Positions 11,468 through 24,334 of a DNA stretch of 64,000 bases are shown piece after piece. This DNA is from an uncultured Chlamydiales bacterium. GTDB lineage: Bacteria; Chlamydiota; Chlamydiia; Chlamydiales; JAAKFR01. A model generated the notes under the pieces. It had not been told where the DNA came from. It did not search any database and saw nothing but the letters and a program-made list of their open reading frames with translations. Within the stretch, counting starts at the first letter, position 1; each line of letters opens with the position of its first letter. A program made the position numbers and the translations under genes. Where the stretch lies: the NCBI GenBank assembly GCA_963699155.1, contig OY969414.1:1611757-1675756 (forward strand), read 5' to 3'.

Positions 11468-14400
11468 TCAAGTATCTTCATCGTCAGAATCGGCAGCGGC
11501 TGCCATAGCAGCTGCCAAGGCTGCTGCTGCTTCCTCTTGATGCTTCTTGACGATGGCTTTGACGTAATCGATTGTGTCTGTGAAGTCTCTGGTTGCGAGG
11601 GATCGCCCATCCATCAAAGCTTTTGCGGTGGCTCTTTGCCAGATATCGAGGTGGCCGCCAACGATGGTGGGGTTGGCTTTGATCCACTTCTCAAGAGCCT
11701 CTTTTTCTTCTTGGCTGAAGGGTGAAAGCCTTTGGCCACCTGTTTCGCCCCGTCTGAAAGCATCGTTGAGTTGTTTGATATAGTTATCATTCAACTTACG
11801 TTGGACCAGCTTGAGGATCCACTCAGGTTTGCTCCTTCTCTCCCGAATGACCTTCAAGTATTCCGCCATATAGCTGGAATGGGCACAGTCCAACTGAATC
11901 ACGAAGCTGTCGAAATCACTCTTTGACATCTGGTCAATCAGCTTGCACAGATGGTCGAGCTCTCTCAGGGTAAACTGAGCCCAGTTGAGAAAGAGCTTGT
12001 TGAGCACCATCAGATGGATAAAATGCTCACTTTCTTTGGGTACAGTGACAGCATCCATGACGAGTCTCGAGAATTTCTCATTCGACAGAGCAAATACTGA
12101 GATGCGATCCATCTGTTTCACAGCTACTGGCGCCTGAATTGCCGCTGCACCAGCCACTCGATGTCTCTGGTAGATCTGCTTGAAAGGAGTCTCGAGAGTA
12201 GGCACGTGGGGCATGATTCGCCCTGCATGCCCATCCATCCCCAAAGCTGTTAGAATATTGGGGATCTCACGCTGGAGATAGGCCCACGCTGCGGCTTCTG
12301 TTGGGTGTGCTAAGAACTGTCTGAGATAGGGCTCAAATGTTCTTTGATTACTGTCATAATTACCAGCGATCATGTTGGCCAGAGCTTGCTGGTTCCCTAT
12401 ATACATTCTCTCCAACCCACCGAGTCCAGCATAGACAGGGCCAGCTAAACCAACAATGGCTGTGCGTGACTCTCTTTTCGCCGCATCGATGTTGATAGGC
12501 TGGGCTTGCACTGCCGCATCAGCAGGGGCGGGTCTCCCGCCTTGGCGAAGGTATTTTCTCTCCTTGATCATTGCAGGTGCGATTTTCTCCTCACGCTCTG
12601 CGGGAGTGGTGATCACGGTCGCGGTTTTCCCGTCATCCATTTGGACGACCAGGAGTTCGACACCAGGAACACCATTCTGTCCCATAGCAACGAGAAGCTC
12701 CCATGCTCTTTGAGAGATATAGGTCTTTTTGTAGAGAGCATCTGGAAGATGGACACCAAGATCGGAATATCTTAAGACATGTTTCAACGGAAGGAAGAAA
12801 CCATTCTCTTTGAAATGGTCGGCGATATAAAACCTGTAATGGTGACTTCCCCAATCAGCAGGTAACTCTATCCGAGCTTGGCCCGTTGCCACCTGCTTGA
12901 AGCGGGCAAAGTCCATCGGCTTGGTGGCTCCGCGATTGAGAACCGGCCTAAAGACTCTTTCCTGCTGCTCCACCTTCTCCTCTCTCTTCTGCTGCTGGAG
13001 CTGCTGCACTTTCTGCTCGTTACGCGCGCCGCCGACTGGATCGGCTGCGATTTTCTCGGGCAGGTTCTCTTTTAAGAATTGCTGATAAGCTTGCTCTTCC
13101 AGTTTTTTCTGTTCTGCGTCAATGTCTGCTTCGGTTTTAACAAAGGCCATCCGCACTGCAAAGACTTTAAGGATCACTTCACGCATCAAGGCGATATCGT
13201 TTGGAGAACCTCTGAGACCTTCTATATAAGTTTTTAGTGAACTTTCGAAAGAATAGCCTTCAAGTGCTTTTGAGAGGGCTACCTGCTGCTCGATCCAGTT
13301 GACCACATTGGCAGCGCCTACCCTTTCAACAAACTCCTTGTGGGTTTTGATAAACTCTTTCAGAAAATCTCTAAAGCCTTTGAGTTGCTTTTGAGCAGAT
13401 CCAAAATGCATCTCCTGAAGCCTTTTCTTCTCCTCTTCATAGAGACTACGTACAAAAGTGATCGGATCGATCATCTTTTGAGGCTCATATTCTCGGAGCC
13501 AGTTGATGCGGCTGCTGAGAATGTAGAGTCCACGGCTGGCTGGATAGACGACCTTTGCTTCAAGATCTGCGAGAACATGAAGGGCTGGCTCATGTTTACC
13601 AATTGCAGACATGTTATAAGGCTTGCGCACCTCCGCATCGAGATGGGTCTTGACAGGTGTCTGGGCCTTAAAGATGGCCGCTTTCACGTTCTTCACATCC
13701 TCCTCCTGAAGCGTATTGAGGGTGAAGTAGAGGAAGGCGTGACCCTGTCTGACCTTTTGATCATCAGGAATATAGAGTGCTTTACGGATTTGAGCATCCG
13801 TTTTTCTGTCATGCGCGAGGCGGACATGGTGTCCAATGTCGAGATGACGCATTCTCCAGAGCAGCTGAGCAATAGGATCTTCCTTGTTGGCCGTTCCCAC
13901 CATGGCAGTCCCGTAGTGGTGACCTCCACGAGGAATGTGGAAGTGGACTCCGCGCGAATCCTTACGACCATAATAGAAGAGAGCATTGCCTGCTATCGCA
14001 CCTGGCTCATAGCGCATCGCGAAGAACTGATCACCGGGGTACCACATCTTCTTGTCGAGATCTTTGTCTCGGTAGATGGCCTGACGCCCCTTTTGACGGA
14101 TTTCAGCCGCTACCCTCTCGGTATCATTACCAAAGACGTCATAATCATAGTTTAAGATCGCATGGCACTCTTTATCTGCTGCCTGTCTCTTGATGAAGTC
14201 GAGAGGTGTCTCCTCAATCTGACTTCCAGGATTTTCAGGATCCTCTTTGCTGCCAAAAGTCGTAGTTTCTTTGTCGAGATCCAAGCAGAGGAGGGTTTCG
14301 CCATAGACAGCGTCAGCTGAATGGGCAATCCCATCTGTATACTCGGCAAGATTGAGGGCATAGGGTTGACCCGTTCCGGAACCGACGCGCACGTCTGCTC

Positions 14401-24334: not shown

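What the first reader, a model, noticed from the sequence alone, without database searches (positions are those of the whole stretch)
11468..24334. 4288-aa giant protein with a cryptic SF2-helicase-like module and about 2800 aa of unassigned N-terminal sequence
Seen, in order on the minus strand: MGTGKS (about 15680), YLVDED (about 15265), GSGT (about 14378), SRGVHF (about 13950), QLLWRMR (about 13855), then a Q/E tract (about 12990). These resemble helicase motifs I, II, III, V and VI. The N-terminus is S/N/P/K-rich with no Sec signal, and there is an aromatic beta-rich insert near aa 260-420. Knowledge (from memory): this motif series matches DUF3638-containing giant proteins of fungi/protists and host-associated bacteria, of unknown function. 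Inference: a type III-secreted NTP-driven effector or toxin with uncharacterised domains.
Basis: partly seen in the sequence, partly recalled or inferred. Interest (0 to 1): 0.7.

Follow-up and report, generated by a model that had tools for sequence, protein, structure and literature searches.

The report
Giant chlamydial DUF3638 protein, SecA-like motor
This is an intact gene for a 4,288-residue soluble protein of an environmental chlamydia, a very divergent member of the unstudied "DUF3638" family of giant proteins, and its last third is a complete ATP-driven motor that most resembles the protein-export motor SecA.

Summary
Window 11468-24334 (-) is one intact 4,288-codon ORF with a good ribosome-binding site.

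The DUF3638 idea is supported indirectly. The protein scores below Pfam's cut-off (17-20 bits against 31). However, a profile of its subfamily retrieves 555 representatives. Of 14 that I sampled, 13 hit DUF3638 and 6 pass the cut-off.

A confident model of aa 2826-3630 (pLDDT 90.7) matches giant-virus DUF3638 proteins (E 8e-21, TM 0.60). Among solved structures SecA/SecA2 rank first (Z 14.3-15.5), followed by SF2 helicases (Z up to 13.7). All ATPase motifs are conserved, so the motor is probably active.

The N-terminal 2,800 residues are conserved across chlamydial relatives. They match no family and hold no conserved Cys/His pair.

The module occurs in 74 of 401 Chlamydiota genomes sampled, and this genome has four such genes.

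Secretion by the type III system, and any toxin role, remain untested inference.

The scan has reported DUF3638 giants before on other DNA (a chlamydia, protists, a giant virus). This is a new, divergent member of a known family whose function is unknown.

The parts
11468..24334 (-). Whole gene: 4288 codons plus stop. The product is 491 kDa, pI 6.8, and soluble.
   Evidence: Largest ORF of the genome.
24342..24350 (-). Shine-Dalgarno-like AAAGGAAGG, 7 nt upstream of the ATG at 24334.
   Evidence: Read directly from the sequence.
23639..24334 (-). N-terminal conserved region, aa 1-232. It begins with the conserved peptide MSxxIKxSKP and includes the HDRVGE...LxQxxF block.
   Evidence: Shared with 11 proteins outside the close family.
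23075..23587 (-). Lineage-specific insert rich in aromatic and acidic residues, aa 250-420.
   Evidence: 20% FWYH. Gap fraction 0.62-0.83 in relatives. Only 1 hit outside the family for block 201-400.
17075..23017 (-). Conserved N-terminal scaffold, aa 440-2420. No family is assigned. The conserved residues are mostly P/G/W/F/L.
   Evidence: Block HMMs hit 10-51 proteins outside the family. Conserved-residue list. Pfam and PDB give nothing.
18455..19537 (-). Region aa 1600-1960 inside the scaffold, beta-rich by eye and highly conserved (W1760, G1758, G1890, W1867).
   Evidence: Alignment A5. Conservation. No PDB or Atlas lead.
15860..16417 (-). Helical bundle just before the motor, aa 2640-2825.
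   Evidence: First model: helices at residues 11-173, pLDDT 72-89. Only generic helical-bundle matches.
13445..15859 (-). DUF3638-type SF2/SecA-like ATPase module, aa 2826-3630.
   Evidence: Model m9b25ee565dd8, pLDDT 90.7, pTM 0.89. Fold searches.
15671..15688 (-). Walker A / motif I, MGTGKS (aa 2883-2888).
15251..15265 (-). Walker B / motif II, DEDVN (aa 3024-3028).
14465..15196 (-). Large, mostly helical insertion within the first RecA-like domain, between Walker B and motif III (aa 3047-3290).
   Evidence: Secondary structure of the model, residues 222-465.
14369..14380 (-). Motif III, SGTG (aa 3319-3322).
13940..13960 (-). Motif V, DSRGVHF (aa 3459-3465).
13847..13867 (-). Motif VI, QLLWRMR, with the arginine pair (aa 3490-3496).
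13523..13747 (-). Long helix plus helical hairpin after the second RecA-like domain (aa 3530-3604).
   Evidence: Model helices 705-745 and 757-779. SecA alignments run through this part, model range up to 784-805.
11471..13444 (-). C-terminal region, aa 3631-4288. It holds the Q/E tract (aa 3772-3792, window 12959-13021), conserved blocks near aa 3860-3930 and 4080-4180, and an Ala-rich then acidic tail.

Best explanation
The gene encodes a soluble 491-kDa protein. It belongs to a chlamydial branch of the DUF3638 superfamily of giant proteins.

Shown here:
- aa 2826-3630 fold as two RecA-like domains with a complete set of ATPase motifs: Walker A Lys2887, Walker B Asp3024-Glu3025, SGTG, and Gln3490/Arg3494/Arg3496.
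- A large helical insertion sits in the first RecA-like domain, and a long helix follows the second.
- Among solved structures this arrangement is closest to SecA/SecA2. SF2 helicases and translocases come next.
- Among predicted structures it is closest to giant-virus DUF3638 proteins.

Inferred:
- The module is an active ATP-driven motor that grips and moves along, or remodels, a polymer. The resemblance to SecA makes a polypeptide somewhat more likely than a nucleic acid.
- The 2,800 N-terminal residues show structural rather than catalytic conservation. I read them as a scaffold that selects the substrate or partner.
- The protein is probably delivered into the protist host by the type III system and acts on the pathway served by the host's own DUF3638 giants. 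The grounds are the eukaryotic and giant-virus relatives, the lack of a Sec signal, and the conserved Ser/Pro/Lys-rich N-terminal peptide.

My odds: family membership and ATPase fold about 0.9; active ATPase about 0.75; secreted into the host about 0.45; polypeptide substrate about 0.3.
For: Gene reality:
- The ORF is intact, has an RBS and is the largest ORF of the genome.
- It is conserved over its full length, at 33-54% identity, in 12 relatives of 3339-5037 aa.
- It sits directly downstream of metN-metI-metQ on the same strand in 3 of 5 related loci.

Family:
- Direct Pfam DUF3638 hit, E 0.0041, 16.9 bits; 19.8 bits on the module alone.
- The subfamily profile finds 555 representatives at E<=1e-3.
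- 13 of 14 sampled representatives hit DUF3638, and 6 of 14 exceed the 31-bit cut-off, up to 85.3 bits.
- 30 of 44 module sequences hit DUF3638.
- Foldseek against viral models: the top 9 hits are giant-virus proteins, 7 named DUF3638 or 'ubiquitinyl hydrolase 1' and 2 uncharacterized, at E 8.2e-21 to 6.9e-11 and TMq 0.28-0.60.

Fold:
- Model pLDDT 90.7, pTM 0.89.
- Foldseek against the PDB: SecA first, E 7.7e-6, probability 1.0.
- VIA second look: SecA Z 15.5 (503 aligned, rmsd 7.0) and Z 15.1 (388 aligned, 4.2 A). The best non-SecA row is NS3, Z 13.7 with 277 aligned.
- Unbiased VIA search: SecA2 Z 14.5, SecA Z 14.3, then NS3 12.9 and FANCM 12.7. All 50 rows are SecA or SF2 enzymes.

Other points:
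- Motifs are conserved in 76 sequences.
- No membrane segment or signal peptide.
- The genome holds two FHIPEP export-gate genes.
- The module was found in 74 of 401 Chlamydiota genomes, but in 0 of 30 of family f3, whose genomes are 1.0-1.2 Mb.
Against: - The protein itself fails Pfam's DUF3638 threshold.
- No member shows DUF3645.
- SecA likeness is structural only. No SecA_DEAD Pfam hit appears in 44 module sequences. A profile comparison with this genome's own SecA is not significant, probability 1.3. The profile search of PDB sequences finds neither SecA nor helicases at E<0.01.
- The Z margin of SecA over helicases is only about 1.5.
- Eight of 44 module sequences give weak DEAD-helicase hits, so a nucleic-acid substrate is not excluded.
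- Nothing here tests secretion. No conserved neighbouring chaperone gene was seen.
- The conserved chromosomal position beside metNIQ, and a base composition (GC 0.49-0.50) near the genome mean of 0.475, fit an old resident gene that could equally work inside the bacterium.
- The N-terminal 2,800 residues were not modelled, so an unrecognised enzyme domain could be hidden there.
Confidence: 0.6

Rival explanations
1. It is a nucleic-acid helicase or translocase that works inside the bacterium, for example in genome maintenance, RNA handling or defence against invading DNA. On this reading the giant N-terminus acts as a regulatory or targeting scaffold.
For: - The two-RecA fold matches many SF2 helicases and remodelers only slightly less well than SecA: NS3 Z 12.9-13.7, FANCM 12.7, RecQL4 12.2, INO80 12.2.
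- There are weak Pfam DEAD hits in 8 of 44 module sequences and ResIII hits in 2 of 44.
- The chromosomal position is stable and the composition is native.
Against: - PADLOC gives 0 hits.
- No nucleic-acid-binding, nuclease or methylase domain was detected in this protein or in 12 relatives.
- SecA and SecA2 rank first in three separate structure searches, with about 100 more aligned residues.
[quoted passage not shown] It is also present in giant viruses. That spread is unusual for a bacterial housekeeping helicase.
Confidence: 0.2
2. It is a non-secreted bacterial cytoplasmic machine that acts on proteins, for example a chaperone-, unfoldase- or export-related motor used during the chlamydial developmental cycle.
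For: - SecA-like fold.
- The gene is inherited at a fixed locus next to metNIQ in 3 of 5 related loci.
- One relative (P0012) carries a DnaJ domain at its C-terminus, 57.4 bits. This hints at work with Hsp70-type chaperones, which could be bacterial.
Against: - The family was not found in 0 of 30 genomes of the small-genome chlamydial family f3, and it is patchy elsewhere: 74 of 401 genomes, and 10 of 22 in the organism's own family. It is therefore not a core function of the chlamydial cycle.
- Relatives occur in eukaryotes and giant viruses.
- There are four divergent copies in one 2.4-Mb genome, a pattern more typical of host-interaction gene families.
Confidence: 0.2
3. It is a deubiquitinase-type or other cysteine-protease effector whose ATP motor feeds substrates to a protease head. 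This is suggested by the automatic name 'ubiquitinyl hydrolase 1' on some DUF3638 proteins and by earlier notes of this scan on other members.
For: - Two of the nine giant-virus structural matches bear the name 'ubiquitinyl hydrolase 1'.
- Earlier scan notes e1-4870350 and e1-5462056 describe a His-Asn-(Gln)-Cys head in other DUF3638 giants. These are unchecked leads.
Against: - No Cys/His pair is conserved in this protein's N-terminal 2,800 residues.
- Cys1398 reads C18/A15/V10/S6 and His1570 reads H28/I9/L7 among 70 aligned relatives.
- Position 548 reads C12/S7/R4 and is Ser in this protein.
- The superfamily-wide list of conserved residues is dominated by P/G/W/F/L.
- Across 80 N-termini of relatives 3000-3900 aa long, no Cys or His reaches 70%.
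- There is no peptidase hit in Pfam or NCBIfam.
Confidence: 0.06

Closest known systems
DUF3638 giant proteins (Pfam PF12340) of eukaryotes, giant viruses and environmental chlamydiae. Examples are the Klosneuvirus-group entries A0A7D3V923 (Fadolivirus), A0A3G5A476 (Harvfovirus) and A0A3G5AAN1 (Hyperionvirus), and this genome's own 3757-aa paralog.
   Same: - A giant soluble protein with the ATPase module in the C-terminal third.
- The same motif set.
- The whole 800-residue module superposes on these proteins (E 8.2e-21, TMq 0.60).
- The subfamily profile reaches bona fide members.
- The function is unknown for all of them. A passage of PMC12615304 says so, and DUF3638 occurs in only 6 papers of the library (listing).
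   Different: - This protein is below Pfam's threshold, at 16.9-19.8 bits against 31.
- It is 700-1,000 residues longer than most relatives.
- It carries a lineage-specific aromatic insert.
- No DUF3645 or DUF6606 hit was seen.
- The block profiles built from its N-terminus do not hit the three paralogs in the same genome.
SecA / SecA2 preprotein translocase ATPases (e.g. PDB 3jv2, 1tf5, 2fsf, 4uaq).
   Same: - Best solved structural match: Z 14.3-15.5 with 388-503 aligned residues.
- Two RecA-like domains, a large insertion in the first between Walker B and motif III, and a long helix after the second.
- By my own recollection of SecA motifs, not from a call, the TGT-type motif III and GRG-D-type motif V also look similar.
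   Different: - No sequence-level relationship was detectable.
- The inserted domain is mostly helical in the model.
- I did not test whether the insertion corresponds to SecA's preprotein-binding domain.
- The protein is five times larger than SecA.
- This genome has its own ordinary SecA.
- I therefore do not file it as a member of the SecA family.
SF2 helicases and translocases (flavivirus NS3, RIG-I/MDA5, FANCM, RecQ, INO80/SNF2).
   Same: - Motifs I, II, III, V and VI, and the two-RecA fold, at Z 10-13.7.
- Weak DEAD and ResIII Pfam hits in some members.
   Different: - No nucleic-acid-binding accessory domain was recognised.
- These rank below SecA.
- No Helicase_C hit appears among the families listed.

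Membership tests
DUF3638 (PF12340) superfamily | Match to the Pfam model above its gathering score (31 bits). | tested here: not met
   16.9 bits on the whole protein, 19.8 bits on the module alone, and 22.9 bits in the genome search.
DUF3638 (PF12340) superfamily | Homology to proteins that do pass the Pfam threshold (transitive, profile-based). | tested here: met
   The subfamily profile hits P0135, P0138 and P0149 at E 3.7e-21 to 2.3e-18. These score 74-85 bits on PF12340. 13 of 14 sampled hits match DUF3638 at E<=1e-3, and 6 of 14 exceed the cut-off.
DUF3638 (PF12340) superfamily | Same fold over the whole ATPase module as named DUF3638 proteins. | tested here: met
   Foldseek against BFVD: the top 9 hits are giant-virus proteins, 7 of them named DUF3638 or 'ubiquitinyl hydrolase 1', at E 8.2e-21 to 6.9e-11 and TMq up to 0.60. 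These targets are predicted structures, not solved ones.
DUF3638 (PF12340) superfamily | Companion region DUF3645 (PF12359) after DUF3638. This pairing is recalled from memory and from earlier scan notes. | tested here: inconclusive
   No DUF3645 hit in this protein, in 14 sampled relatives, or among the 25 families listed for the 44 module sequences. The model is short, and the fold of that region is still shared.
SF2 helicase-type ATPases | Motifs I, II, III, V and VI with catalytic Lys, Asp-Glu and arginine finger(s). | tested here: met
   with counts given in the observation check.
SF2 helicase-type ATPases | Two tandem RecA-like domains. | tested here: met
   Model pLDDT 90.7. All 50 top rows of the unbiased search are SecA or SF2 enzymes, Z 9.8-14.5.
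SF2 helicase-type ATPases | ATP hydrolysis coupled to movement on a nucleic acid. | not testable with these tools
   Needs biochemistry.
SecA family | Sequence match to SecA_DEAD and the other SecA Pfam models. | tested here: not met
   No SecA family appears among the families listed for the 44 module sequences. hhalign against this genome's SecA gives probability 1.3.
SecA family | SecA as nearest solved structure. | tested here: met
SecA family | Preprotein-binding domain and two-helix finger; association with SecY. | not tested
   The residue-level superposition was not available to me. The insertion lies at the equivalent place in the chain, but its fold was not compared on its own.
Type III secreted effector | Export by a type III system, dependent on an N-terminal signal. 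| not testable with these tools
   Only circumstantial points: no Sec signal or membrane segment, a conserved Ser/Pro/Lys-rich N-terminal peptide, and FHIPEP genes in the genome.
Type III secreted effector | Dedicated chaperone gene next to the effector gene (frequent, not obligatory). | tested here: inconclusive
   No neighbour downstream of the giant gene is shared with any of the five related loci. The upstream neighbours are metNIQ. No chaperone family was seen among the neighbours scanned.
Cysteine protease / deubiquitinase | Conserved catalytic Cys and His. | tested here: not met

The most novel reading that the evidence does not exclude
Environmental chlamydiae inject SecA-like polypeptide-handling motors that copy a still unknown machine of their protist hosts, the eukaryotic DUF3638 giants, which giant viruses of the same hosts have also copied. 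If so, three unrelated inhabitants of amoebae would be competing over one unstudied cellular pathway. The chlamydial genes are intron-less and bacterial, and there are up to four per genome. They would be the easiest way to find out what the whole family does.
Probability: 0.15. Interest if true: 0.75.

Novelty: new member of a known kind. Interest (0 to 1): 0.38.

Why it matters
DUF3638 giants are catalogued in many eukaryotes, giant viruses and environmental chlamydiae, but no member has a known function. This work shows three things:

- A whole chlamydial branch lies below Pfam's detection threshold. It appears in 74 of 401 genomes sampled, with open frames of roughly 600 to 5,900 codons, most of them 2,000 or more.
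- The branch has a complete, probably active motor that resembles SecA more than helicases.
- Its huge N-terminus shows no protease-like catalytic set.

This narrows the hypotheses to be tested. It also offers a bacterial gene as an entry point for biochemistry of the family.

Tried and rejected
1. The first structure model (aa 2640-3640, 6-sequence alignment) was poor: pLDDT 64.7, pTM 0.36. Foldseek gave no hit at E<=1e-3. The VIA wide search gave only helical-bundle or BAR-like rows for residues 6-197. I discarded it and replaced it with the 57-sequence model.

2. A Cys1398/His1570 protease pair was rejected because neither residue is conserved in relatives. An N-terminal His196...Cys548 set was rejected for the same reason.

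3. I recalled that DUF3638 giants might carry the viral-tegument-like deubiquitinase domain. The passages of PMC9741609 that I read show no such link, so I dropped the idea.

4. Sequence-profile searches of the PDB found nothing:
   - A2: 0 hits.
   - A5 and A6: best E 0.056 and 0.37.
   - A7: best hit is a poly-Q artefact.

5. The ESM Atlas gave scores below 0.9 for aa 1360-1660 and no usable hit for aa 1600-1960.

6. hhalign of A4 against this genome's SecA, used as a single sequence, gave probability 1.3. This is underpowered. I did not build a SecA alignment.

7. PADLOC gave 0 hits.

I did not pursue it.

9. Sequencing runs: no RNA holder is listed. The only holders are two small-share soil-metagenome DNA runs from one study, and I did not lay reads on them.

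10. Cluster look-ups gave an organism name for only 1 of 20 proteins, a Parachlamydia MAG.

11. Earlier-findings look-ups by place returned nothing.

12. Promoter and terminator scans of both gene ends found no more than the shuffled controls.

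Full report
THE GENE

Window 11468-24334 on the minus strand is a single open frame of 4288 codons that starts with ATG. An AAAGGAAGG ribosome-binding site lies 7 nt upstream. The product has a calculated mass of 491 kDa and a pI of 6.8. Its most hydrophobic 19-residue window scores only 1.67, so it has neither a signal peptide nor a membrane helix.

The window lies at C1:1611757-1675756 of a single-contig 2.40-Mb genome. 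This ORF is the largest in that genome. GC across the gene is 0.49-0.50, against a genome mean of 0.475.

RELATIVES AND CONSERVATION

A word-indexed search with aa 2780-3560 found 13 other proteins of 3265-5037 aa. Twelve are 41-65% identical in that region, and one is at 22%.

Aligned over their full length, 12 of them are 33-54% identical to this protein, with conservation along almost the whole chain. Two stretches are specific to the close family or lineage:
- aa 201-400, which contains the aromatic insert at aa 250-420; relatives have gap fractions of 0.62-0.83 there.
- aa 2401-2600.

A scan of one genome per species found five loci. Four are titled as Chlamydiales, Chlamydiia or Chlamydiae MAGs and one as 'uncultured bacterium'. 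Their open frames are 3886-5389 codons.

In three of these five loci, as in the window, the gene follows metN-metI-metQ on the same strand. Nothing downstream is shared. In the window the downstream neighbours are a HEPN-type NTase_sub_bind ORF and an IS3-type transposase pair.

FAMILY ASSIGNMENT

Pfam gives one hit on the whole protein: DUF3638, E 0.0041, 16.9 bits, below the 31-bit cut-off, covering aa 2879-3062. NCBIfam and PADLOC give nothing credible.

A profile of six diverse module sequences was searched against 1.84 billion representatives. It found 555 proteins at E<=1e-3, 193 at <=1e-10 and 119 at <=1e-30. Most are 3000-5400 aa long, with the module about two-thirds of the way along.

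I picked 14 of these spread down the list. Thirteen hit DUF3638 at E<=1e-3, and six exceed the cut-off (31.5-85.3 bits). None hit DUF3645 or DUF6606.

I also scanned 44 module sequences one by one. Thirty hit DUF3638 (best E 2.3e-27), eight hit DEAD (best E 0.0023) and two hit ResIII. No SecA family appears in the list.

The protein is therefore a very divergent member of the DUF3638 superfamily.

STRUCTURE OF THE MODULE

A first model built from six sequences was poor and its searches were uninformative.

A second model covered aa 2826-3630 and used a 57-sequence alignment that I checked column by column. It reached mean pLDDT 90.7 and pTM 0.89. It shows:
- a first RecA-like domain carrying Walker A and Walker B;
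- a mostly helical insertion of about 245 residues between Walker B and motif III;
- a second RecA-like domain carrying motifs V and VI;
- a 40-residue helix followed by a helical hairpin.

Fold searches with this model gave the following.
- Foldseek against the PDB: 19 hits at E<=1e-3. SecA and SecA2 take ranks 1-11 (best E 7.7e-6, probability 1.0). XPD, MDA5, UvrB and DinG follow.
- VIA re-alignment of Foldseek's list: SecA at Z 15.5 (503 aligned, rmsd 7.0) and Z 15.1 (388 aligned, 4.2 A); SecA2 at 14.5. The best non-SecA row is dengue NS3 at 13.7 (277 aligned).
- VIA search of 48,161 representative chains, independent of Foldseek: SecA2 14.5, SecA 14.3, SecA motor 13.0, NS3 12.9, FANCM 12.7. 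All 50 rows are SecA or SF2 enzymes.
- Foldseek against predicted viral structures: the nine best hits are giant-virus proteins, from Fadolivirus, Harvfovirus, Hyperionvirus, four from Hokovirus, a Megaviridae sample and Yasminevirus. Seven are named DUF3638 or 'ubiquitinyl hydrolase 1' and two are uncharacterized. They score E 8.2e-21 to 6.9e-11 with TMq up to 0.60. Ordinary helicases start only at E about 1e-4.

The SecA resemblance is structural only. hhalign against this genome's own SecA is not significant, and a sequence-profile search of the PDB finds neither SecA nor helicases.

CATALYTIC COMPETENCE

In the 76-sequence alignment the Walker A Gly, Lys and Ser/Thr, the Walker B Asp-Glu, the Gly-Thr of motif III, and the Gln and two Arg of motif VI are present in essentially every non-gap cell. 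All of them are present in this protein. I infer that the ATPase is active. This inference has not been tested.

THE N-TERMINAL 2,800 RESIDUES

Block profiles of the close family detect blocks 801-1000 and 1401-2400 in 28-51 further proteins of the superfamily, and block 2601-2800 in 61. Much of the architecture is therefore old and shared.

No family or solved structure matches these blocks by sequence, and the Atlas gives no lead.

I looked specifically for a catalytic set, for two reasons: some DUF3638 proteins bear the automatic name 'ubiquitinyl hydrolase 1', and earlier notes of this scan describe a His-Asn-(Gln)-Cys head in other members. The result was negative.
- Cys1398 and His1570, invariant in the close family, are not kept in 70 aligned relatives.
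- Position 548 varies between Cys, Ser and Arg, and is Ser in this protein.
- Positions kept at 80% or more across relatives are mostly Pro, Gly, Trp, Phe and Leu.
- In 80 N-termini of relatives 3000-3900 aa long, no Cys or His reaches 70%.

I therefore read the N-terminus as a scaffold.

DISTRIBUTION

With the module profile, 74 of 401 sampled Chlamydiota genomes have a match at E<=1e-5. That is 62 of 335 high-quality genomes and 57 of 212 genera. The open frames range from roughly 600 to 5,900 codons (most of them 2,000 or more), and there are often two matches per genome.

The organism's own family scores 10 of 22. Family f3 scores 0 of 30; its listed members are 1.0-1.2 Mb, so by size it is probably the Chlamydiaceae, though that is my inference.

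This genome holds four DUF3638-type genes:
- this one;
- C1:1410069-1421342, 3757 aa, 61 bits;
- C1:2283448-2292261, 2937 aa, 21.9 bits;
- C1:2371923-2374937, 1004 aa, 41.4 bits. This last one equals the C-terminal third of the 2937-aa paralog at 29% identity.

The family's N-terminal block profiles do not hit those paralogs.

None of 14 well-known control genomes reaches the Pfam cut-off.

WHAT IS IN PRINT

- DUF3638 occurs in 6 papers of the library, DUF3645 in 2 and DUF6606 in none (listings).
- A passage of PMC3482391 lists 'SecA-like helicase-related domains' among the C-terminal modules of Amoebophilus effectors. I could not check whether those are DUF3638.
- Supplements were not consulted.

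MECHANISM AND ODDS

Shown: family membership, the fold, motif integrity, solubility and the distribution.

Inferred: the module is an ATP-driven motor acting on a polymer, and the SecA likeness tilts this towards a polypeptide (about 0.3 against 0.2 for a nucleic acid).

Also inferred: delivery into the protist host by the type III system (about 0.45). The supporting points are:
- the genome has two FHIPEP genes;
- the protein lacks a Sec signal;
- it has a conserved Ser/Pro/Lys-rich N-terminal peptide;
- its family is otherwise eukaryotic or viral;
- it is patchy among chlamydiae and multi-copy.

Against this, nothing here tests secretion, and the stable locus beside metNIQ fits a resident bacterial function equally well.

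A toxin role has no support.

VERDICT

The scan has already reported DUF3638 giants on other DNA: e1-4870350 in another chlamydia, e1-632314, e1-671077 and e1-621388 in protists, and e1-5462056 in a giant virus. This is therefore a new and unusually divergent member of a known family of unknown function.

Noticed in passing
window 8807-10203 (+): An IS3-type transposase pair (HTH_Tnp_1 ORF, then an rve integrase-core ORF) lies 1.3 kb downstream of the giant gene, in a stretch where GC drops to 0.40. No neighbour downstream of the giant gene is shared with any of the five related loci.
   Followed up: partly
window 10912-11265 (+): A 117-aa ORF with a strong NTase_sub_bind (HEPN-type) match, E 6e-24, possibly half of a nucleotidyltransferase/HEPN toxin-antitoxin pair. 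I did not look for the partner.
   Followed up: no
window 32175-35609 (+): A 1144-aa ORF with no Pfam match at E<=1e-3. It is not similar to the other 1144-aa ORF of the genome (C1:1491309-1494743).
   Followed up: partly
window 28815-29885 (+): A 356-aa ORF whose only Pfam matches are weak hits, below threshold, to eukaryotic coiled-coil families (Mod_r, KASH_CCD, Shugoshin_N, PI3K_P85_iSH2). It may be a coiled-coil host-interaction protein.
   Followed up: no
protein P0012 (relative of the giant, 4705 aa), residues 4402-4454: One family member carries a DnaJ (J) domain near its C-terminus, 57.4 bits, which hints at cooperation with Hsp70-type chaperones.
   Followed up: no
own genome, outside the window: C1:1410069-1421342, C1:2283448-2292261, C1:2371923-2374937 (loci L027-L029): Three further DUF3638-type genes of 3757, 2937 and 1004 aa. 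The 1004-aa ORF is a stand-alone module, 29% identical to the C-terminal third of the 2937-aa paralog. Upstream of it there are only short broken frames.
   Followed up: partly
own genome, outside the window: C1:1775043-1778339 (+), locus L031: A second ORF with a SecA_DEAD match (126 bits), 1098 aa, 34% identical to the genome's SecA over 244 residues. It has an N-terminal extension of about 430 residues and lies directly after a 2135-aa ORF.
   Followed up: partly
own genome, outside the window: C1:234857-244339 and C1:250708-259332 (+): Two further giant ORFs of 3160 and 2874 aa. They are paralogs of each other with internal repeats (several offset BLAST segments at 24-38% identity). They are unrelated to the DUF3638 giants by BLAST.
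   Followed up: no
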